Shown: positions 1,171-18,972 of the stretch, piece by piece
How positions within the stretch are numbered: position 1 is the first letter of the stretch
Layout: every line of letters starts with the position of its first letter
Assembly: GCF_001186125.1 (NCBI RefSeq)
Contig: NW_014040418.1
Coordinates: 76,029-96,028, forward strand
Direction of reading: 5' to 3'
Source of the DNA: Sphaeroforma arctica JP610
Lineage: Eukaryota
Length of the DNA: 20,000 nt
Position numbers and translations under genes: made by a program
The notes under the pieces: generated by a model
Seen by the model: only the letters and a program-made list of their open reading frames with translations
Told to the model about the DNA's origin: nothing
Database searches by the model: none

Positions 1171-1851
1171 CTAAAACCTAAGTACTTGTATTCTGACCAC
1201 AAAGCGCTCCCCTGTAATGCATACGTCCTTGCATAGCCTACGAAAACCTCTGTCGTCTCTTACATACTGCGACTCCGAATTTGGCACAGATGGCCGTGTG
1301 CGTAGTTTGCCGTGTGCCTCAGCTGCACGCACACCGATCTCTGGTCGAGGATCGTTTGAGCGATTTTGCAGTGCATTCTCAATCAGGGCAAGACAACGCT
1401 GTCGCATACAGTTGCGCTCAGAGATAACGTCAGACACCGTTTCCTTCTCACTGCAGATTTGTGATTGCAAAGTGTCAAAAGTCGCTAGCGCTGCCTCGGC
1501 CCTTTTGAGATAATCTCGCTCACCCCCAGCCTCTGCACCTATCTGTACATCGCCCAAAACGGCGCAGCATTCCATCACCAATTCGATGACTGGTTCCCGT
1601 ATTTGTCTTACTTTCAAGATGTTTTTGTAGCACGCATGTGCGTCAGCCAAGACGTAGGCAAGAGATTGCTCCACACCGGCCGGTATGGCTAGTTTAAACT
1701 CTGGCGTTGCCAGTGCGATACTGTCCATCCGCGCTACTCGAATGCAGTCTGCGAACCTCGATACAGTCAGCAGGTACTGCTTAGAAATAGACGAAGGTAC
1801 GTTCGAGTATCCTGAGTCCATAGTCTGTAGAAAAGTAGGCGAGACGGACAC
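1171..1851 (-). CDS. Orphan ORF (226 aa, GTG start), probably a fragment of a multicopy gene or TE accessory ORF of unknown function
   Basis: Long stop-free frame. 1200-1470 aligns without gaps to 14139-14409 on the opposite strand (22 mismatches in about 270 nt by manual count), and both copies are open. No motif recognised. Confidence 0.45.
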   Translation of the reverse strand: MSVSPTFLQTMDSGYSNVPSSISKQYLLTVSRFADCIRVARMDSIALATPEFKLAIPAGVEQSLAYVLADAHACYKNILKVRQIREPVIELVMECCAVLGDVQIGAEAGGERDYLKRAEAALATFDTLQSQICSEKETVSDVISERNCMRQRCLALIENALQNRSNDPRPEIGVRAAEAHGKLRTRPSVPNSESQYVRDDRGFRRLCKDVCITGERFVVRIQVLRF

Positions 1852-1963
1852 GCATGCTTTCTACTTTTTACTCGAGCTGCTTGACGACAACAAGGGCCAC
1901 AAGGCTTACTATTTTCAGGTCAAACGATGCTGAACAACATTAAAACACTTGAATATACCATAC

Positions 1964-2041: not shown

Positions 2042-5000
2042 CTACATTAACATCGAAAATGAATGCCACACAAAAATGTCAAGCCTTGTCCTAAACGTTT
2101 AGCTGAAAGCCTATAGCTTAGATCGGTTAAGGTGGAAACACGAAAAGTTTTAAAACTATATTTCAGTCTTATACGAAAACAGTCAAGCTACAAGGAAGCC
2201 ATAACGACTCATTGTTCAGTATGGTAAACTTTCAGGTCACGCGAGGGAACTGGATTTTGTCTGCTTCTGCACTAGCTCGGTGTTTCCTAGGTTTAATCAT
2301 ACCATACTACAATATTGCAGACAATTCAGAGTAACATCCAGTCTCATCAGGCTATACGTATTGTAAGAGCGAAGCCGTGTATGTTGTACATTGTAAAGTA
2401 CCCAAGCATCACATAAATATATATAGAATAGGCGACAAACGGTTTGTCAAGATTAAAGACTGTCCTCCAACACTGGACAGAAGCGAAGAAACAATAAAAG
2501 AAAAGAAAAATCTTCAAGTTTAGAGTGAAGAAAATCGCATAAGAAGGAGTAAAATAGACCACTCACCACTGTTTTAGCCTCTGTTTCAGTCCTATTTTCA
2601 ACCAGCGTTTGCACAGCGTATCCTACTCCTTCTTTGCAGGCAATGTGAAGTGTGGTCTCATTGTCCTACAGAGTAGATGCAAAACTATATCACAAATATT
2701 CAAAATTTACTGGGACAAAGAACAACACCGTAACCTCGTTAAAACGGTTTTGCCAGACAGACCTATGGTAGATATCCTACAGAGAATCTTTGAAATTTTA
2801 TGATACTATCCGCCTCTCATCTTGCTCTTCAGTGCAAATACACCATCGTACCTTACTGACGTGTCGTTTTCGAGACGATTTGACTCCAGATAGCAGCAGT
2901 ATTACTGAAATGACATATTGTCGATAGTACGAACCACAGCCAAGACTGTGAATATTATATTTCTCTTTTGCCGGAATAAAACACCACAAAGGGGAGAATA
3001 TAAAGTACTACAACATATACTAATAGTCCATCAATAAGACACATGCTAAATATTTCCACCTGCTTAGTTTCAGGTCATTGATTACACTTTTTGTTCAATA
3101 CCAATCATTTCAGCAATATACACAACTTTCATCGCTAGTATCACGAGAACTCAATTTTTGAGTCAAATACATCCCAAAGCACAGCATGAGCATTGTGAGC
3201 TGCACCAAAAATCGGCAGATCTATGTGACCGTAGCGATGACTTTATCAGTACAAAATTTGCGAATGATTTGGAACCATATAGTTGAAACAAGTATGAGTC
3301 TTTTTCAGTTGCAAATAAACGATCAAGACTGCTGCCAGTACTCAGGATAATTGCACGCGTAGGAGTGTTGTGTTTCTTCTCGTTATGTACATATATATAT
3401 ATATCGACATCATTCTGTGAGTGTTAGAGGTTTGCGGTCAATTAGAACCGGTGCAAATTCGCCACACCCACGTGATCTGAGACTATCACCCGCGTACAGT
3501 GACTCGTAAATATTGAGACAGCGATCGATCACCTTGTACTACTAACGCGTCATCGACTACAGTGTCAGTTAATGAATGCATAGCCCACAGAGGGACTGAA
3601 ATTGCTGCCGTATATCTAGCTTTGGCATCAACAACCCCTTTATCGGCAACGTACTATCTATACTGACGCGTAGATATAAAAATCTAATACCAGCCGAACA
3701 TCAGCAGATTCACGACAAAGAAGATGCGTATAAAGTATGACTTCTCACACAAATTACAAATATATGGTCCTGTCAAGCACATGTAAGGAACACAGGCGTG
3801 TTTGTCGGCCGCGCCTTTAGCATACTCTACGTCTAATCACCACATAACATGATAGATAAAGTTCGATAACAACCACTCTCGCTGCGGGTTTTGCGGCTTA
3901 CCAAGTTTTGTGCCTCAATATTGGCACCGTTACCAAGCAGTGGTTTCAAGATCCCAGCGTTTGCGTAGTTTTTGTAACAGTTAACGTGAAGTGGAGCGTC
4001 TCCATTCTGGAAGCCGAAGATACAAACCCAAATAAACGTATCGGCGTCACTCATCTCGGATGAAACTATTTTGGACATATATATATATATATACCTGTCC
4101 CATAGCACACTTTGGCATAGTCATGCAAGTTAACCTCAACGTAAATGTACCTGTGATGCTGCAAGGATTTGCATACATAGTACATATAATACAAACGATT
4201 CATTCCAATGAAGAAGGCTACGACTGCACGGACTGCATTACTAACGGGCAAGTGCCAAGCTCACTTTTCATCGAATATCAATCAGCAATCACACAGAGTC
4301 GAAAGGTGCACCAGACCCAGTACCTGACGATAATTTTGTGAAGGTATTGGGATTATAAAATAACAACAGATCGCCTTTCTCGTCTAGTTCCCGACTAATG
4401 GGCTTCTAGTAGCCACATGTCGTTCAAGAATCAGTAGGAAACACAAATGTACGGACGAGTGCCAAAAGGAACTGAATATAGTATGAAGCTTGCAAGTGTT
4501 CGACATTCCCAGAGGCGATCAGCACAGCCCCAACAAAACACACAATCCATCACACAGACGATGAGTGCTCCTATTGGTATTTCTTGTCGAGTCCAGCCAT
4601 TTATGAAACTCAATGATTGTCATTCAGAAAATAACCATGATCTTCTCTGCGCACGTATACTTCTAACAGAATAACCAATAAGTGTAGAACACACAAAAAA
4701 AACAAACCAAAAACAACATGTGCTTGCCACAATATACGATGATGTAGTTTACTTACCTCGTCTCTCGCCTCTATACTAGCGCCATTGTCGAGCAGTAGTT
4801 TGACAATGGTTTCATACCCGTAGAAGCAAGCGTTGTGGATAGGAGTACGGCCAAGCTGAATATACGGAATTACAACCATCTCAGCCAGAATATTCTTGTC
4901 AACAACACTTCGACCGGTATAAATATCGAACAATTGGGTACCAATGTACATCCAGTCAGATGCGGATAACCGACAGAGACATGCTCGATATCATCTGTAG

Positions 5001-5590
5001 TAGTCTAGCACATAAAGATAGAAACTCGTTGTGCATGGCCAATATTCAGTCGGAGAACGACACAGACTTGTGATGTTTTAAAAATGGAAGAACAGCGGTT
5101 ACACAGAGGGAGCGTATGCGTGTGAGTGCTCCCAGTTAATATTCTTTCATGTATGTCGTCGATGGTTATAACTTTAAAAAAATTGACGATAAAGGTTTAA
5201 TTGGAAAAATACACAATCGACAGGGAAAGAAATCACACGCCAAAGCATCTAATTCCGTCATTCTATGATGATAATCACAGTAAAGTAAAATTCAGCACCC
5301 GAAGTATATATAGTTCTACATACTAAACATATTGAGCTTATATACTACTAAATACTAAACAAATTCCTAGATTACCTATATCCCAGAATAACATACAATG
5401 CCATTTTACATACTAAACATACTTATAGAGTGCATTGCCATCTTACAACCTAAATATACCAATAGAGTACGTACTTCCCAAATTGACACACATTGTTACG
5501 GGCCTCGATGTTTGCTTTCCAGTAGAGCAGCAATTGCACGACCATCACCGATCCCCCTTGGCATGCACTGTGAAGCGGACGATTCTTGTC
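1964..5590 (-). CDS. Spliced ankyrin-repeat protein gene (5' end not identified; may be partly decayed)
   Basis: Five AG/GT-bounded phase-0 exons: 5492-5590, 4757-4855, 3902-4006, 2567-2665 and 1964-2041. Each translates to an ankyrin repeat (TPLH..AC..G...V.LLL..GA.IEA) or a terminal GKTP cap. Confidence 0.8.
2567..2665 (-). CDS. Ankyrin-repeat exon (99 nt, 33 aa, divergent)
   Basis: tag|DNETTLHIACKEGVGYAVQTLVENRTETEAKTV|gtgagt. Confidence 0.8.
3902..4006 (-). CDS. Ankyrin-repeat exon (105 nt, 35 aa, divergent)
   Basis: cag|NGDAPLHVNCYKNYANAGILKPLLGNGANIEAQNL|gtaagc. Confidence 0.8.
4757..4855 (-). CDS. Ankyrin-repeat exon (99 nt, 33 aa)
   Basis: cag|LGRTPIHNACFYGYETIVKLLLDNGASIEARDE|gtaagt; close to consensus. 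Confidence 0.92.
5492..5590 (-). CDS. Ankyrin-repeat exon (99 nt, 33 aa)
   Basis: cag|DKNRPLHSACQGGSVMVVQLLLYWKANIEARNN|gtgtgt. Confidence 0.85.
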
Positions 5591-9785: not shown

Positions 9786-10176
9786 TGTTAGAGTGTAAGA
9801 TGGTAGTCAACCTCACCTTTGGTTTTATACTCAAGGTGTTTGTGCTAGTGTTCAACCGCTTGGATTGGCCAGGGTGAAAACTCATATGGTCAGTATGAGA
9901 AACCTTTTGCAGAACACTTTAACACTTAGATATTGTTCTGTAGCATAATCTCTGCCACTCGCTCTTACGCCGATCAATTAATGTTGCTTGGCTTTCAGAG
10001 CAATTCTCACCTAGGTATCGGCTTTCGGAGCGATGCTCTCATAGGAGCAAATGTATTATTAACATGATGTGGTTAATAATTTGATCCGCTTTTCGGAGTG
10101 ACGCAACTCTTGTGATTTCATTCAAGAAAAAGAGTGTTCTTGCTATTGAAACTTGCTTGAGATCTGTAGTCTCTCA
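9786..10176 (-). mobile_element. LTR copy (solo-like) abutting the 5'-truncated RT
   Basis: On the minus strand it reads TGAGAGACTACAG...CTCTAACA, matching both termini of 15156-15620. Shares a ~120-bp block (ggtgtttgtgctagtgttca...cagtatgagaaacctt..gcagaacacttta) with the other two copies. No TSD visible. Confidence 0.7.
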
Positions 10177-10890
10177 CTCATGGTTCCCAAAAGTCCTCGG
10201 ATCACCCCCCAAACCAAAGATGATAGGCGATATTGTACTAACGTTGCTAAGTGGAAGACAAAGTTGAAACAAGAGCCGTTCAACATCCCTACCGAAGGGA
10301 GCACATTGAGGATCTGTCGATTAATTCCAATGGCCACCCTATAGAGATGGTTGGACACGTCGCGGGCAAGCCGTGGGTATCTGTTGTTGATTGTGGAAAT
10401 AGTTTCAACCAGCTTCCGCTGGAGAAAAAGAGCCACGACATATTGACATTTTGGACTCCATGGGGCCGTTACAAGTACTTGGCCCTGCCTTTTGGTATTA
10501 CCGAGGCATCATGGCGATTCCAAGAGACCCTGGATCGTCTATTCGATGGTTTGCAGGGTACCAAGTGGTATATAGACGATATCGTGATATTCTCGGGCGG
10601 GTGCATCTGAGCATAGGGATCCCCTCATTGCGTTCTTTGAGCGCCGTGACAAGTATGATATCCAGTTTGGCCTTCCCAAGGCGCGGATCGGGTATTATAA
10701 ACGCCCAGCATCAGGGCGTCACAATCTCAGCTGATCGGTTAGCGGCTCTGCTTGAGGTTGACCGTCCTGACAACCAGGACCGCGTCCGGTCGTGGTACCA
10801 CACGGTGGCGTTTTGGCAGCGGTTTATCGACGGTTTCTCCAAGATTTTGAAACCCATCCCGGCCTTTTGTGAAATTCAAGTGGGGTGCTG
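10177..10890 (+). pseudogene. pol: Reverse transcriptase, Ty3/Gypsy type (frameshifted, 5'-truncated)
   Basis: LMVPK..., WVSVVDCGNSFNQLPL...TFWTPWGRYKYLALPFGITEASWRFQETLDRLF...WYIDDIVIFS (YIDD at 10569-10580); thumb region VRSWYHTVAFWQRFIDGFSKILKP. Confidence 0.95.
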
Positions 10891-10929
10891 ACCAGCAGGC
10901 CGCGTTTGATTTAATCAACGAGCTCTGAA

Positions 10930-11353
10930 GACATGTGCAGTCCTCGCCACGCCGGAGCCGGGTGTACGACTTTACCAGTTCGCTGATGCTTGGGAGCATT
11001 TTGGCCTTGGCGGGGTAATTTATGTGCTGAGGAATGGGAAACTGCAGCCAGTGGCATATTTTTCCTCCAAGTTCTCGCCAGCCTAACTTAACTATCACGT
11101 CACCGACAAGGAATGGCTTGCGCAGGTTTACGGTCTTCGGAAGCATTGAGCGGTGTTTAATAATACTCATCACCCTATCACGATCTTCACGGACCATCAG
11201 GCACTTTTGACCCTGTGGCGCCGTGAGTTCTTTGCAGGTGACCCTCGTGGCCGACGACAGGCACGTTTGCAGGAGGTTTCTAAGGACCGTGACGTTTAGC
11301 TCTTGCATGTCCGAGGTAAGGACAATAACACAGCAGATATGCTGAGCCGCCTT
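10930..11353 (+). pseudogene. RNase H, Ty3/Gypsy type (in-frame stops)
   Basis: VLATP...FADAWEHFGLGGVI...QPVAYFSSKFSPA*LNYHVTDKEWLAQVYGLRKH*...ITIFTDHQAL...RQARLQE...HVRGKDNNTADMLSRL matches TDAS..G.G.VL/PVAYFS.KL...E.NY...EKE/TDH..L/GK.N..AD.LSR. Confidence 0.93.
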
Positions 11354-11454
11354 ACCACAAGGTAGATCCGTCGATGGATCCGGTTGGGACGCAAACTGTT
11401 ACCCCCAGGAGACGAGTCACGTGGCGATATCCGGTCGCTCGTCAGGGTCCTCCC

Positions 11455-11880
11455 CACAGCAATGAATACATGGCTAATAAAAGGTATTTCAAGGTAGCTG
11501 ATAAGGCTGGGGTCCGCATATCCATGACGGTTTTGCTCTGCCGGGCAATAACCATTTGCCGAATTATTTCCCCCCTTCTTTGGAAGGTGGCGCGTCTTCC
11601 CAATTGTAGACGTTCCTCAATTTGTGGGACAACTGTCCGTGGGCCGCAATCCCGCGTGTGTTAGCTAAGGTTATTGCGGATGAAGCGGACATCACGTTAA
11701 TGTGCCCTTATCTCACTGATGCGCCGTGGTTCCAGCCCATGTTGTCGTTGTTATCACGGGAACCCATTATTATCCCGCCGGAGAAAGGCGTCTTGTCTTT
11801 TTCCGGTATGGGCATGAAGAGATGCCACCGCTGCGCTGGGGTCCTACGCTGTTGTGCCGGTTGTCGGCCAGGGGCGCCCA
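11455..11880 (+). pseudogene. DIRS-type Dam-like (N6-adenine) DNA methyltransferase domain, decayed
   Basis: NEYMANKRYF...HDGFALPGNNHLPNYF...SQL*TFLNLWDNCPWAAIPRVLAKVIADEADITLMCPYLTDAPWFQPMLSLLSREPIIIPP...VF...PPLRWGPTLLCRLS resembles the DIRS MT pattern D.FA...N..LP.YF...W....W.NPP(F/W)..IPRVL.K......ILI.P.W..APWF..L. Confidence 0.8.
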
Positions 11881-11999
11881 AGTATCAGGTTCCTCAGGAA
11901 TTTTGGCGTCAGTGTGACGTGTTCGTTCCTGGTGGTGTAGCTGGCGGAGCCGCTTGCTCTGTTCTCCGTACTAGTCCGCGGAGTTGATAGCGTGCGATG

Positions 12000-12441
12000 T
12001 GGGGGACTAATAGTAAATTGCTAGTGTATCTAAAGTATGGTGCGTTCGAGATGAATTTATTTATGATCTCACTCTCAGTTATATACTGATGGTGTTTGTA
12101 CTAGTGTTCAACCACTTGGGTTGGCCAGAGTAAAATCTCATATGACCAGTATGAGAAACCTTATGCAGAACACTTTAGCACTCGGATATATTTTCTAGAA
12201 ATAAATATAACATATTCTCTGTTAATACACTCAGTCTCGGACCTCGGCTCTCGGCTAGCCGGTGGCCCGTATCCCATAAATAGAATAATCTGAGAAGAAG
12301 TCTCAAATTACTCTTAGGTTCTCTCGGGCTGACCCGTCTATACTTATATTAATTTGAGAACAAGTCCCAAATTACTCTCGGACTGACGACGTATAACGTT
12401 ATTAACGTATATGGAAATACATCTACTACTGTAGTCTCTCA
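12000..12441 (-). mobile_element. Solo LTR inserted between the methyltransferase and integrase regions
   Basis: Imperfect terminal inverted repeats TGGGGGACTA / TAGTCTCTCA. Flanks GATG (11996-11999) and GACG (12442-12445) form a 4-bp TSD with one transition. Shares the ~120-bp block and the TGAGAGACTACAG end with the other two copies. Confidence 0.75.
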
Positions 12442-12679
12442 GACGGCTGCCCCCCAACCCACTCTGGTGGAGTTGGCTGCACTTGAACGTCAGGCGGCAC
12501 AGGCCACAGAGCCTAAGCGCAAGATGCCTAATCGACGTGTGCGTCGGGCTAGTACTCGCCATGAGCAGGTACAGGCTGCCGTGCAGCGGTACTTGCCTCA
12601 ATTTAAGGAGGAGGTTGAGTCTGCTGTCAAGCTGGCTATGGAGGGCCCTTCTCCGTACCGTGTTCGTGGTTTTGTTCTC

Positions 12680-13632
12680 TCGTGGCCAGAGGTCCATACT
12701 GCGATTGCTGCCACGCACAAGGTATACATACACACATGCACTGTACGGTTGGAGCGGCCTGCGTTCGTTGATTCGAGTTGTCAAGCGTTCGTGTCATCGG
12801 TGTCAGCTTTGTGCTTCGCATGGTACACAGGAGTTAGGTTTACTCCAACAACCCAAGCGTGGGCGTGGGCTGTTTGACCATATCTTAGCTGGGTATACAC
12901 ATCTTTTGCAGAGCCACTTCGATGGTTCTGGTGAAGCCTACCCGTTCTAAGAGTGCTCGGAAGGCCATTAAGTTCCTTAATGAGGTTGTTCACCCGTGGG
13001 GCCAGCCCAAATTGTACAGGTGTGACAAAGACTCCGTGTTTATGGCCAATTAGTTCGCTGAGTTTGCACAACAGTCCGGCGGCGAGGTTCATGATGTCAC
13101 CACTAATCATCATCAAGCCAAGGCGCCGCTGAAGCGATGGTGAAGGTTGCTCAGGATTGGATCCTCAATTATATGACCGCCAAGGATGAGGGCGATGGGT
13201 CCCTTGGCGCTACAGGTTTCGCAACTGTTATAATGCTGCGACCACGGCCACTCAAGGCTTTGCCCCATACACTATGGCTACGAACCGTGTGTGTGATGGT
13301 GAGCGTGAGTTCAAGCTGGAGGCGGACGTACGCCGCCTGCTGGCCACTGAAAACTCGGTCCGTGCTCTGGTCCGTGATGATGCCGCCTTCCAGCGTACCC
13401 AGCGTGCCAAGGAAGCACAAAGGGTGATGGCGAATAAGGTTCGCAAACGTGCCCCAGACCTCGCTCCAGGTTCCCTAGTCAAGTTCAAGACTTCCCCTGA
13501 CCGCCCGAAGGCGGATGATAAATGGAAGGGCCCTGCTACTGTTCGATCGCAGGATGGCCCGGTTACATATACCATCTCTTTCCGAAGCAAGGAGGTGCGT
13601 CGGCACAGATCGCAGCTTCGCGCATACATCTC
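12680..13632 (+). pseudogene. DDE integrase, Gypsy type (HHCC region, core, GPY/F-like tail), frameshifted
   Basis: YGWSGLRSLIRVVKRSCHRCQ...GLLQ...LFDHI; WGQPKLYRCDKDSVF (D at 13024) to NHHQA(N)GAAE (E at 13131) gives D-35-E after restoring a 1-nt deletion; tail PGSLVKFK...KWKGPATV...YTI...RRHRSQLRAY. Confidence 0.92.
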
Positions 13633-13699
13633 CCCTATCTCCCCAATTATTGGGCAAGATGTGGATCTAGTGTTTTCTGGAGATTATGAGCAGTGGCTT

Positions 13700-14140
13700 T
13701 TCATGCGATCTCCTTTTCGCACGGCTCCGATCGAAGAACGACGGGCAGTGTTGCATCACCTTCGACACACGGAGAAGGGCTAGACGTGGAAGAGGCTGAT
13801 TAACTCAGCTTTTGATCTTCTACAGAAGGCATACACCTGGAAGGATAGACGGGTCAAATATCATTGTCTTCTGCTGCTCGAAAATTTCTTGCCAAGGAAT
13901 GTAAGCAGCTCTCCCCAGGAACTCTTCAGTCGCACATATCCCTTGTCGGGTCTGCGTTGGCGTTTGCCAAGGTCCCCTCATTCCGTGCTGAGAAGGTCAA
14001 GGAATGAACGGATGCGGCAAACAATAGGGCGCATACACCAATCTTGGGTGCGGCCTCCGTCGGTCAGCGAATTAAGTTGCCTGCCGGTTTGCCGAAAGCT
14101 TGGACGTTATCGCCGCCGGGATAATGGTGTTAGCGTGGCT
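13700..14140 (+). pseudogene. Possible N-terminal half of a DIRS-like tyrosine recombinase, truncated before the catalytic residues
   Basis: VLHHLRHTEKG*TWKRLINSAF...(fs)KFLAKECKQLSPGTLQSHISLVGSALAF...(fs)LDVIAAGIMVLAW resembles the YR core-binding region (FL......LSP.T...Y.S.V...L) and the D...A...L.W helix preceding the first catalytic Arg. No RHRY residues seen. Confidence 0.45.
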
Positions 14141-14741
14141 GCAAACACAGATTCGCAGTGAGAAGGAAACGGTGTCTGACGTTATCTCTGAGCGCAACTG
14201 TATGCGACAGCGATGTCTTGCCCAAATTGAGACTGCACTGCAAAATCTCTGGAACGATTCTCGACCAAAGATCGGTGTGCGTGCAGTTGAGGCACTCGGC
14301 AAACTGTGCACACGGCCACCTGTGCCAAATTCGGAGTCGCAGTATGTAAGAGACGACAGAGGTTTATGTAGGCTATGCAAGGACGTATGCATTACAGGGG
14401 AGCGTTTTGCCATTCTTCTTGGCTATAACTCATCTCTGAGAAGGACGTGTGATATGGTCGCAGACAATGCTCGCAAACGATTTACGGACATATTTTTCCG
14501 AGAGTATGAGTGTGAGCTTGCCGACATGACAAGTGAACGGAGGTACCTTGAGCGGTGCTTTGCTGGTCTCGCGGAGGAATTGGCATTTCAAAGGGATAGC
14601 GCGAAATATGTGACCAAGGCTTCCATACTATTTGGTATTTGTGTCAAAATAGAGACGGCTTTGGACGCTCTGGTGAGGTATTGCTACCAAAGCATTGAAA
14701 TGGATGCCGCATACCGACGGTTAAGCGACACGCCTTGTTGA
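14139..14741 (+). CDS. Second copy of the orphan ORF family, extending about 110 codons further 3'; joined to the truncated retroelement
   Basis: 14139-14409 is an inverted near-copy of 1200-1470; the frame stays open to TGA at 14739-14741. Confidence 0.5.
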   Translation: MQTQIRSEKETVSDVISERNCMRQRCLAQIETALQNLWNDSRPKIGVRAVEALGKLCTRPPVPNSESQYVRDDRGLCRLCKDVCITGERFAILLGYNSSLRRTCDMVADNARKRFTDIFFREYECELADMTSERRYLERCFAGLAEELAFQRDSAKYVTKASILFGICVKIETALDALVRYCYQSIEMDAAYRRLSDTPC

Positions 14742-14803: not shown

Positions 14804-14823
14804 NNNNNNNNNNNNNNNNNNNN
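14804..14823. other. Assembly gap
   Basis: Run of N. Confidence 1.
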
Positions 14824-15155: not shown

Positions 15156-15620
15156 TGAGAGACTACAGGTTTCAAGCCAGATTTTACAGTAAGAACCCAT
15201 CTTTGATTTATGGAAGTCATCAGAATTAGCTCACTCATGAGAGCTAATAAAGTTGCTCAAATTACTCTCAAGAGTTGAATTATTACTTAACCGACTTCAT
15301 AGAGCAGATTTAGTTTCTCAACCGATTTCCGAGAGTGGATTAAGCCTGTCAACCACAACATATAAATAATAGCTGCGGCTCTATGTGAGTCACAACCTAT
15401 GCGGAAAGGCATCATGTGATCAGCGTGAGATTTAGTTGCAGAGAAGTTGAAATAGAAAAGCATCGAAGTTTTAAAGTGTTCCGCATAAGGTTTCTCATAC
15501 TGACCATATGAGTTTTTACCCTGGCCAACCCAAGCGGCTGAACACTAGCACAAACACCTTAGGTATAATACCAAAGGTGAGGTCAGAAATAAATACATCC
15601 ATTTGCACGGTACTCTAACA
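15156..15620 (+). mobile_element. 3' LTR (465 bp) with residual internal sequence upstream (14824-15155)
   Basis: TGAGAGACTACAG...TACTCTAACA (TG...CA), preceded by a PPT, homologous to the two inverted copies. Confidence 0.75.
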
Positions 15621-15631
15621 GTACCAACAAC

Positions 15632-17588
15632 ACACGTAAGCGAAAACGATGGGATGCGCAAATAGTATTCGCTGATAATGAGATCGAGGAAACAAGGCTG
15701 CGCGAAAAGTTTGGTGTGGGGCAACGAAACACTCGGAGGCGATAGAGAATTGCTGGTCAAGAAGTGGCTGCCTGGTTGCAGTTTGCAGGTACACACTATC
15801 CTGAACTTCTGAAAAACGCCAACGTGCGAAGCACCTTCACTGGGAAATACGAGCTGGAGTGTGCGGCACAGGGGATGTTGCGTAAAGACGACAATGTCGA
15901 TAACTATCAACTCGCGAGGTTGCTTTCAGACAAGAAAGGCCGGCCCGTAAGACTCGTCACAGACTTTGAGGGCAAGCAGAAGTCCTAAAGCCTCACCACC
16001 AGCTCACACTTCTCGCACTTCATGAGGACGTGTAGCAAGCTGGATGCACTGCGAGGAGTGATCAATATCGTACCCATCAGTGGGGTGTTTACTGAGGAAC
16101 ACTTTGGTCACGTGCTCATGCACTACTACAGTGGCGGTGATCTTGCTGCATGGATAAATGGCCACCCAAAGAGAGATCCAAAGTTGTGTCTACGGATAGC
16201 GCACCAAGTCGTGGCTGCAGTCGACAGCTTGCACACTCGGGACATTGTGCACTGTGACTTGAAGCCCGAGAACATATTTTGACGATGAAATTAGAGGTGA
16301 GCAATCCAGAATTTCGAGCCATTTAGCAGCTAGTTCGTGTCCATTTTTTGGGGCCATGTCTCGTTTGCACGGTAGAGAAATCTGAATATACTTAATGTAG
16401 GCTGATGGGGTCTCCCTGGTACATTATTATATATTTAGAAGCTTTCTATGATTCAGGCTTTCATTCGTATAATAAAAATCCGATCTGTACACAACAAACG
16501 TGTTATCGTCATTCATATACACTCGGGTGATCAGAACAGTAGCCGTGTTTTCTATAATTTGCTTTTCTATGTACAGGCTGTGCTGGGTGACTTTGACAAT
16601 GTGCGTGACGCAGACTGCACTATAACGACTGCGGTAGGAGTGACTCGCAAATACGAAGCACCCGAGATATGTAGCGGATTGGTGAGCAGATTTGCCAAGA
16701 GTGCAGATGTATATTCACTCGGCCTGGTGCTGGAAGAACTATTCAGTGGTGTGAGTGTTTCTGATACTTTAACGGCAGCGACGGACACGGCAGTCACCAC
16801 ACTCGTTGTTCAAATGACTCGAAAGCGACCAACTGAGCGTCTAACACTGTGTGAAGTGACAGCTATGTCAATTTTTATTGATCTGCAAAGTACTCGACTG
16901 TGTGGAATTTTCTGTGAGGCATATGTTGCAGCGGAGAGTCTAGTGTGTCGCAATGGGCACGTGACATGCAACGGCTGTGTGAACGACTGGTTGCGGTTTG
17001 ACCTGACTAACTCGAGCTTCATCACGCGGAATGCTGGACTACTACCATGATCAATGCAGATGAATGGGTGCGAGAAAGTGTGGGAACCGAAAGTATACGC
17101 CGCCCATGTCGAACAGAGTGTATTTGAAGAAGCCATGTGTCTGGTAAATAAGCCTAAGGTGGGCGAGGAGCTTTTGATCGAACAAGAGCACGAAGCTGCG
17201 CAGGATCGGGAGTTTCATTACATAGCTGACCAGATGCTGCCACTGAGATGTCCAGAAATGGGCCATGTACTTGACGAGTCGTTTGATGTTTGCTTCTCAC
17301 TGACCTGCGCGGTGTGTCCAAATGGCATCAACGAGTTCTGTGCTTTCTGTTGGGCATGCGCATGTGCTGAAATGTGCTCAGAATCCGAACCCGGGAGAGG
17401 TTTACAACGCTTTAGATGTATTTTACAAAATCAAGCGTAAGGAGCGGTCGCAGCAGCTGAAGAAGTACTGGGGTACGATCAAACTGGATGAAATGGCCAA
17501 GAAAAAGCTTACAGAACGGATACAGCCACTTCGGAACCAACTGAAGCCAGAGGGTACATACAAGTCTGTGGCAGACATCATTGCCTGA
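15632..17588 (+). pseudogene. Ser/Thr kinase - RING - Rcat/RING2-like fusion, disabled and 5'-truncated by the LTR
   Basis: Kinase motifs VLMHYYSGGDL, IVHCDLKPENIF, AVLGDFD, TRKYEAPE, SADVYSLGLVL, RPTERLT. RING-like CGIFCE...CRNGHVTCNGC...LP*(C)...GC, then LRCP...FDVCFSLTCAVC...FCAFC...HAHVLKC..NP. Stops at 15743, 15986 and 17048; frameshifts near 16280 and 17350. Confidence 0.88.
16297..16576 (+). other. Spliceosomal intron (280 nt) in the kinase domain
   Basis: GAG|GTGAGC donor and ttttctatgtacAG|GCT acceptor; splicing joins ...NIF(LTMKLE) to AVLGDFD at the expected spacing. Confidence 0.85.
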
Positions 17589-18298: not shown

Positions 18299-18945
18299 AT
18301 GAGATCGATTCAATAGGCGTATGCTATAATTTGAGAATCTATGTACTTGCTTCTGCAAGGAAAAAAAATTCAAGGCGAATCAATAGTTGTAGGTAAAAAT
18401 CTCTGTACCGTACTACCGTAGTACCTGGTTTAGTTCTTTTCAGGATCCTAGTTTAGCTGAAGAATCCTTATATAAATTCTTCGCAATCTACCCATAAAAT
18501 TTACAAAACGAGCGGAGCTCAGAGATATCCCTATTTTTAATGGATTTATATAAAAAATCTACTACACATAGTCTACACGAACTCATTTGATGCGATTGCA
18601 TTGAATGATTAAAATGAATCCATGAGATCGATTCAATAGGCGTATGTTATAGTTTGAAAATCTATGTACTTGCTTCTGGGAGCAAAAAAAATCAAGAAGG
18701 CGAATCAATAGATGTAGGTAAAAATTCTGTACAGTACTACCGTAGTACCTGGGTTAGTTCTTTTTAGGATCCTAGTTTAGCTGAAGAATCCTTATATAAA
18801 TTCTTTGCAATCTACCCATAATAATTACAAAAAGAACGGAGCTCAGAGATCTCCCTATTTTTAATGGATTTATATAAAATATCTACTACACATAGTCTAC
18901 ACGAACTCATTTGATGAGAATGCATTGAATGATTAAAATGAATCC
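18299..18945. repeat. Head-to-tail tandem duplication, 2 x about 323 bp (18299-18621, 18622-18945)
   Basis: Both units begin atgagatcgattcaataggcgtatg and end gaatgattaaaatgaatcc, with scattered substitutions. Confidence 0.97.
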
Positions 18946-18972
18946 ATCTTAACTTGTACGTGGTCCTATTGA

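What the first reader, a model, noticed from the sequence alone, without database searches (positions are those of the whole stretch)
10177..14140. Hybrid retroelement: Gypsy RT/RNase H/DDE integrase plus DIRS-type methyltransferase and probable tyrosine recombinase
Seen: RT, RNase H, MT-like domain, HHCC/D-35-E integrase with GPY/F-like tail and a YR-like segment, all on one strand and in that order. Established: Ty3/Gypsy pol is PR-RT-RH-IN with no MT or YR, while DIRS elements are RT-RH-(Dam-like MT)-YR with no DDE integrase. The RT and RH motifs here are Gypsy type, yet the MT sits where DIRS carries it. Inference: this is a decayed copy of a lineage combining both modules, possibly with two integration enzymes. 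I do not recall a described group with this architecture, but cannot confirm novelty without a search.
Basis: partly seen in the sequence, partly recalled or inferred. Interest (0 to 1): 0.9.

Follow-up and report, generated by a model that had tools for sequence, protein, structure and literature searches.

The report
Dead Gypsy element carrying adenine methyltransferase
This is a broken copy of a Gypsy-type jumping gene that carries an adenine-methyltransferase-like domain related to those of DIRS elements, a design already described in a 2026 preprint for what is likely the same protist; the proposed second integration enzyme was not found.

Summary
Window 10178-14139 is a decayed, end-truncated Ty3/Gypsy pol. 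RT and RNase H are Gypsy-type (Pfam; tree 100/100 with Gypsy against DIRS). A DIRS-type Dam-like domain follows at 11484-11858 (profile of 19 DIRS domains, E 8e-13), then a weakly scoring H2C2/D-35-E integrase. The tyrosine recombinase is not supported. A profile of 12 DIRS recombinases finds nothing in 209 targets, and a sister copy reads the 'YR-like' segment as the integrase's own C-terminal tail, stopping at the same place. 12000-12441 is a separate high-copy insertion. Sister contigs join RH to MT and MT to integrase, so this is a family layout, not a nested DIRS or a misassembly. All named relatives are Sphaeroforma arctica proteins. A May 2026 preprint describes Gypsy elements with DIRS-derived DAM (DAM-LTRs) and names S. 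arctica. This scan noted the same kind six times in other genomes. What remains undescribed is an unclassified ~150-residue integrase tail. Low interest.

The parts
9808..10177 (+). Partial copy of the high-copy repeat; abuts and cuts the element's 5' side (no gag, protease or 5' LTR found upstream)
   Evidence: Similar to 12050-12197 and 15417-15599; summed contig depth 3,795 against 120-240 upstream in run X1; the Gypsy pol profile has no hit between 5121 and 10362
10178..10610 (+). Reverse transcriptase, N-terminally truncated and frameshifted; YIDD motif
   Evidence: RVT_1 E 2.7e-9; best solved relative Ty3 RT 4ol8, E 5.2e-9; Gypsy profile 38.5 bits against DIRS profile 14.7. The part before 10347 was read by eye only
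10709..11356 (+). RT thumb/connection and Ty3-type RNase H, with in-frame stops
   Evidence: PF17917 53.6 bits, PF17919 43.5 bits; Gypsy profile E 1.1e-20; tree
11484..11858 (+). DIRS-type Dam-like N6-adenine methyltransferase domain, broken; about 6 residues missing at the catalytic loop, no intact NPP/FPP; a short RLS motif like that ending a DIRS pol ORF follows in another frame near 11860
   Evidence: MT profile E 8.4e-13; DIRS pol profile 11493-11858, E 3.7e-12; tblastn hits 8 of 19 loci searched, all 8 DIRS, none of the 5 non-DIRS loci; RLS motif seen by eye
12000..12441 (+). 442-nt high-copy insertion, TG...CA ends, flanks GATG/GACG (likely 4-bp target duplication); likely a solo LTR or MITE of another family
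   Evidence: Depth 18,593 against about 450 beside it in X1; 19-23 contigs with unlike flanks end at 12441 in 4 of 4 runs; one sister contig per run joins 11878 to 12448; ends
12700..13660 (+). DDE integrase: H2C2 finger, core with D-35-E (frameshifted; 31 nt shorter than a sister at the start of the core), GPY/F-SH3-like C-terminal region
   Evidence: a sister contig has 53 letters where the window has 22 at 12886-12909
13661..14124 (+).
   Evidence: P0002 covers 13274-14121 in one ORF and ends at the same residue; P0004 and P0005 share its first half at 42-46%; no YR hit
14139..14140 (.). 3' truncation point of this copy; an unrelated repeated gene fragment follows
   Evidence: Two sister contigs continue with other sequence behind 14139 in 2 of 2 runs; 14140-14409 is 92% alike to 1200-1469 inverted

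Best explanation
This is a dead, truncated copy of a low-copy Ty3/Gypsy retrotransposon family, likely of the ichthyosporean Sphaeroforma arctica, whose pol carries a DIRS-type Dam-like methyltransferase domain between RNase H and a DDE integrase (a DAM-LTR). Shown: domain order, Gypsy affinity of RT/RH, DIRS affinity of the MT, sister copies with the same joins, and no detectable recombinase. Inferred from Ty3/Gypsy biology: intact members would reverse-transcribe to double-stranded DNA and insert with the DDE integrase alone. Inferred from the position and the end motif: the MT was captured as the end of a DIRS pol ORF, without the recombinase that follows it in DIRS. Untested, and the preprint's model: the MT would put or seed 6mA on the cDNA or RNA-DNA intermediate, so that host AMT1 keeps new insertions transcribed (my odds about 50%). 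The 'YR-like' segment is the integrase's tail, most likely a targeting or partner-binding module where chromoviruses have a chromodomain (inferred, about 35%). This copy later took a 442-nt insertion, many stops and frameshifts, and lost both ends.
For: RT/RH. The tree of RT+RH with 3 Gypsy and 13 DIRS rows puts the window on the Gypsy side of a 100/100 branch. MT: E 8.4e-13 with a DIRS profile; one DIRS MT alone finds its best frameshift-aware match at 11637-11872, reached by 0 of 150 shuffles (3 of 200 without frameshifts). Genuine DIRS MTs score only E 9e-5 to 0.02 or nothing on Pfam Dam (3 of 4 pols hit), so the missing Pfam hit is expected. Family layout: joins 11235-11359, 11235-11411, 11133-11794 and 11878-12448, one contig each in 4 of 4 runs from 4 studies; exact contigs 11177-11681 and 12948-14113. 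Host: the 4 named relatives are all S. arctica JP610 proteins, 45-84% identical. Literature.
Against: No LTR, primer site, gag or protease is in the window, so 'LTR element' rests on domains alone. Integrase hits are below Pfam cut-offs. The window row is a long branch outside the three Gypsy references, the tree has no BEL, Copia or Ngaro rows, and an RT-only tree with one mis-cut row was unresolved. The letters between the two sides of the sister joins are 'not known', and no listed piece spans the whole stretch. The catalytic loop is damaged here and sisters' MT could not be read. The preprint's E. coli assay found no methylation by any eukaryotic DAM. P0001 leaves the window's frame at 13747 and has a different tail.
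Confidence: 0.86

Rival explanations
1. One reading: a hybrid lineage with both a DDE integrase and a tyrosine recombinase (or a relic recombinase core-binding domain fused to the integrase).
For: A helical tail of similar size to a YR N-terminal domain sits at the 3' end and loosely resembles one by eye. Only 12 DIRS YRs were in the profile, so a very distant relic could be missed.
Against: No hit with the whole YR profile or either half, while all 12 held-out DIRS YR N-domains score 97-200 bits. hhalign probability 0.08%. Pfam finds SAM-like and Phage_integrase domains in 2 of 2 DIRS YRs but in none of P0001-P0005 or the window frames. P0002 ends with the tail, leaving no room for a catalytic domain.
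Confidence: 0.03
2. The MT is a one-off nested DIRS fragment inside an ordinary Gypsy copy.
For: The MT matches DIRS only and is followed by a motif like the end of DIRS pol.
Against: No DIRS RT, RH or YR flanks it. Diverged sister contigs span RH to MT and MT to integrase in 4 of 4 runs, and depth is even across RH, MT and integrase.
Confidence: 0.06
3. A chimeric assembly that joins unrelated repeats.
For: The region is repeat-rich, an N gap lies at 14804-14823, and no listed contig spans the whole stretch or this copy's own 12000-12441 borders.
Against: Contigs with 0 differences bridge 11177-11681 (X8) and 12948-14113 (X1, X3, X13); sisters show the same joins. One of these runs may be the window's own source.
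Confidence: 0.03

Closest known systems
DAM-LTR retrotransposons, ichthyosporean lineage (Pirum gemmata, Abeoforma whisleri, Sphaeroforma arctica); Fernandez-Moreno et al., bioRxiv 10.64898/2026.05.21.726589 (whole main text read; figures not seen; supplements closed)
   Same: Ty3/Gypsy RT, DIRS-derived DAM domain, DDE integrase, no chromodomain, no YR; likely the same host species
   Different: The text does not give the DAM's position for this lineage (it says 'between RT and integrase' only for the Chloro-Ochrophyta clade) and does not mention an integrase tail; Fig. 2B or the supplements may. This copy is dead and lacks the NPP motif.
DIRS elements (RT-RH-MT plus YR; Muszewska et al. 2013, PMC3783388, six passages read)
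   Same: MT domain directly after RNase H
   Different: RT/RH are Gypsy-type; a DDE integrase is present; no YR; no DIRS inverted termini seen
Canonical Ty3/Gypsy (Ty3 RT, PDB 4ol8; L167-L169)
   Same: RT-RH-H2C2-rve-GPY/F order
   Different: MT inserted between RH and integrase; ~150-residue unclassified tail; none of L001, L167-L170 has an MT

Membership tests
DAM-LTR (Ty3/Gypsy with DAM) | RT groups with Ty3/Gypsy, not DIRS | tested here: met
   small reference set, long branch
DAM-LTR (Ty3/Gypsy with DAM) | DAM domain homologous to DIRS MT | tested here: met
   DIRS MT profile E 8.4e-13; no direct Pfam Dam hit
DAM-LTR (Ty3/Gypsy with DAM) | DDE integrase in the same pol | tested here: met
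   weak scores, right order and spacing
DAM-LTR (Ty3/Gypsy with DAM) | Conserved NPP catalytic triplet | tested here: not met
   About 6 residues missing at the loop in this decayed copy; sisters not readable, so the family's state is open
DAM-LTR (Ty3/Gypsy with DAM) | LTRs with target-site duplication | tested here: inconclusive
   Both ends are lost in this copy; no genome held
Ichthyosporean DAM-LTR lineage | DAM falls in the published ichthyosporean clade; no chromodomain | tested here: inconclusive
DIRS/Ngaro YR retrotransposons | Tyrosine recombinase | tested here: not met
DIRS/Ngaro YR retrotransposons | DIRS-type RT/RH and absence of DDE integrase | tested here: not met
DIRS/Ngaro YR retrotransposons | ITR/ICR or split direct repeats | tested here: inconclusive
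   None seen bounding the element, but the ends are lost

The most novel reading that the evidence does not exclude
The ~150-residue tail of the integrase, shared by at least two divergent Sphaeroforma element groups, is an undescribed targeting domain that stands in for the chromodomain and steers DAM-LTRs to 6mA-marked, active chromatin, working together with the element's own methyltransferase.
Probability: 0.12. Interest if true: 0.6.

Novelty: already known. Interest (0 to 1): 0.2.

Why it matters
As it stands it is one more decayed example of a recently described design. It adds the domain order (RH-MT-IN) for a likely S. arctica family and removes the two-integrase idea. It would matter more if the tail proved to be a chromatin reader, because that would link the element's methyltransferase to where it inserts. 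Whether retrotransposon DAMs methylate anything is still open, and this dead copy cannot test it.

Tried and rejected
No genome is held, so no copy census or termini. Homolog searches with the MT core and RNase H among longer proteins found nothing; weak evidence. No intact RT-RH-MT-IN polyprotein was retrieved. Related-locus scans: the tail alignment in metagenomes found none; RT found 1 weak locus in metagenomes and none in viral contigs; a DIRS MT in genome contigs found none. The AlphaFold model of P0002 had pLDDT 36.6, so no fold search was run. Atlas: the P0002 tail gave no usable hit; P0004 hit unnamed clusters at 0.93-0.94, nearest named ones gag-like at 0.86-0.87, a lead only. There is no atlas result for the MT. 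P0002 against PDB sequences: 0 hits. Three motif scans of viral contigs gave 71 loci holding a single DIRS element (L020 = L046). The RT-only tree had one mis-cut row (L168) and was unresolved; it was redone with RT+RH. No RNA holder was listed, which says nothing on expression. No tRNA genes. Rejected: YR, nested DIRS, misassembly (see rivals). Also rejected: the 442-nt repeat as this element's own LTR, because it lies inside pol, is about 40-fold deeper, and a sister contig skips it.

Full report
Verdict. The methyltransferase-in-Gypsy observation is real and belongs to a family, but the design is published. The tyrosine recombinase is not supported.

Domains. The three + frames of 10000-14300 are full of stops and frameshifts. 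Pfam finds RT (E 2.7e-9) and Ty3-type RNase H (E 2.7e-14 and 3.3e-11). H2C2 (E 0.01) and rve (E 0.033) are weak and under cut-off. The best solved relative of the RT is Ty3 RT (E 5.2e-9). Pfam, PHROGs and NCBIfam found neither a Dam nor a recombinase domain.

Reference sets. Because the libraries were silent, I fetched real elements with short recalled motifs. One DIRS pol came from viral contigs (L020). A scan of genome contigs gave 93 loci, 18 of which held a DIRS MT by tblastn. Pfam confirmed RT in 4 of 4 DIRS pols tested, Dam weakly in 3 of 4, and Phage_integrase plus SAM-like domains in 2 of 2 YRs. A scan for a Gypsy motif gave 4 loci, 3 with complete pols.

MT. A profile of 19 DIRS MT domains hits 11484-11810 at E 8.4e-13; nothing else among 209 targets (overlapping six-frame pieces plus 5 proteins) is below E 1. 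The alignment has a gap of about 6 residues at the catalytic loop, so this copy has no intact NPP/FPP. By eye, an RLS motif like the end of the L020 pol follows in another frame. The window's MT hits 8 DIRS loci and none of 5 non-DIRS loci, whereas its RNase H hits only a Gypsy locus.

RT/RH. The Gypsy profile outscores the DIRS profile on RT (38.5 against 14.7 bits) and on thumb/RH (66.6 against 5.2). In a tree of 17 rows the window lies with the 3 Gypsy rows, 100/100, as a long branch outside them. No BEL, Copia or Ngaro rows were available. An earlier RT-only tree with one mis-cut row was unresolved.

Integrase. The Gypsy profile aligns 12901-13125 and 13361-13597. The second Asp (13024) and the Glu (13131) have 104 nt between them, one short of 35 codons. 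A sister contig has 53 letters where the window has 22 at 12886-12909; the first catalytic Asp probably lay there (inferred).

YR. A profile of 12 DIRS recombinases finds nothing; its best hit is E 0.35, at the kinase. The N- and C-halves against 7 tail sequences give E 0.3 or worse, while each held-out DIRS N-domain scores 97-200 bits; hhalign gives 0.08%. A search of 1.84 billion representatives with 13661-14158 returned 4 proteins. P0002 runs in one ORF from the GPY/F region through the whole segment and ends at the residue before the window's TAA at 14122-14124. So the segment is the integrase's tail, with no catalytic recombinase domain behind it. P0004 and P0005 share its first half at 42-46%. 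Its fold is unknown (pLDDT 36.6; atlas inconclusive). P0001 departs at 13747 into another tail; this may be a gene-model or copy-specific effect and was not resolved.

Family or accident. Contigs from 4 runs of 4 studies were laid at 80% likeness. Depth over the element is about 250-580 in X1 against 120-240 upstream, even across RH, MT and integrase; this suggests a few copies, though depth is no copy number. One contig per run, in 4 of 4 runs, gives each of the joins 11235-11359, 11235-11411, 11133-11794 and 11878-12448; the letters between are not shown. Contigs with no differences cover 11177-11681 and 12948-14113. A diverged 372-nt contig covers the tail, and two contigs per run go on with other sequence behind 14139 in 2 of 2 runs. 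The tables were cut and no listed piece spans everything. 12000-12441 is a TG...CA repeat about 40-fold deeper, flanked by GATG and GACG. A related piece cuts the element at 10177. Gag, protease and LTRs are absent from this copy.

Host. The 4 named relatives are S. arctica JP610 proteins; the fifth, P0003, is the window's own. The host is therefore likely S. arctica (inferred).

Literature. Fernandez-Moreno et al., bioRxiv 10.64898/2026.05.21.726589 (whole main text; figures not seen, supplements closed), report at least four transfers of DIRS DAM into LTR elements. One is an ichthyosporean lineage in Pirum, Abeoforma and S. arctica, without chromodomain and with conventional Ty3/Gypsy organisation. 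They report more 6mA and expression on DAM-LTR insertions in S. arctica, and no activity of eukaryotic DAMs in E. coli. Their text does not state the domain order for this lineage or mention a tail; Fig. 2B or the supplements may. PMC3783388 (six passages) gives the DIRS definition. Searches listed no other paper on Gypsy with Dam, or on elements with both integrase types (listings only). Six earlier notes of this scan describe the same kind in other genomes; none exists for this genome or sequence.

Mechanism. Shown: anatomy, affinities, family layout, decay. From Ty3/Gypsy biology: intact members would transpose by RT/RH and the DDE integrase alone. Inferred: capture of the end of a DIRS pol without its recombinase. 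Untested: the MT seeds 6mA that host AMT1 maintains (about 50%), and the tail targets integration (about 35%).

Scores. Novelty: already known. Interest 0.2. Most novel open reading: the tail is a new 6mA-chromatin targeting domain (probability 0.12, interest 0.6).

Noticed in passing
window 9808-10177 (+), 12000-12441 (+), about 15160-15608 (-): Three related pieces of a very high-copy repeat (summed depth up to 39,000 in X1) sharing a 120-170-nt core and the same 3' end; TG...CA ends with 8 of 10 inverted-terminal matches in the middle copy; solo LTR or MITE.
   Followed up: partly
window 14140-14741 (+) and 1171-1860 (-): Two copies (92% over 270 nt) of an unknown coding fragment with no Pfam hit; it begins exactly where the retroelement is cut.
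   Followed up: partly
window about 16000-17440 (+): Broken protein-kinase gene followed by a RING-like and Cys-rich segment (Pkinase E 5.3e-7, Sina_RING E 0.0015).
   Followed up: no
window 4610-4990 (-): Ankyrin-repeat exon (E 5.4e-8).
   Followed up: no
window 4915-5121 (+): Weak hit of the Gypsy pol profile in its pre-RT part (E 0.003); may be chance.
   Followed up: no
window 18299-18947: Tandem duplication of a 324-nt unit, 92% alike.
   Followed up: no
window 10296-10343 and 11789: Sister contigs lack 48 nt (4 other letters instead) and 5 nt respectively; copy-specific insertions in this dead element.
   Followed up: partly
L096, L103, L104, L122, L135, L142, L146, L151, L152, L113, L143, L082, L114: Eukaryote-type DIRS retrotransposons, several with long open frames, lie in contigs filed as bacterial MAGs (Sedimenticola sp. 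TCF1, Brevinema sp., SUP05); likely host contamination. 18 of 93 loci held a DIRS MT.
   Followed up: partly
L020:3854-6627 (-): A DIRS gag-like and pol region (RT-RH-MT) with no YR ORF behind it, inside a 30.7-kb viral contig.
   Followed up: partly
P0001: Sister protein shares the integrase C-terminal region to window 13747, then has a different 325-residue tail; unexplained.
   Followed up: partly
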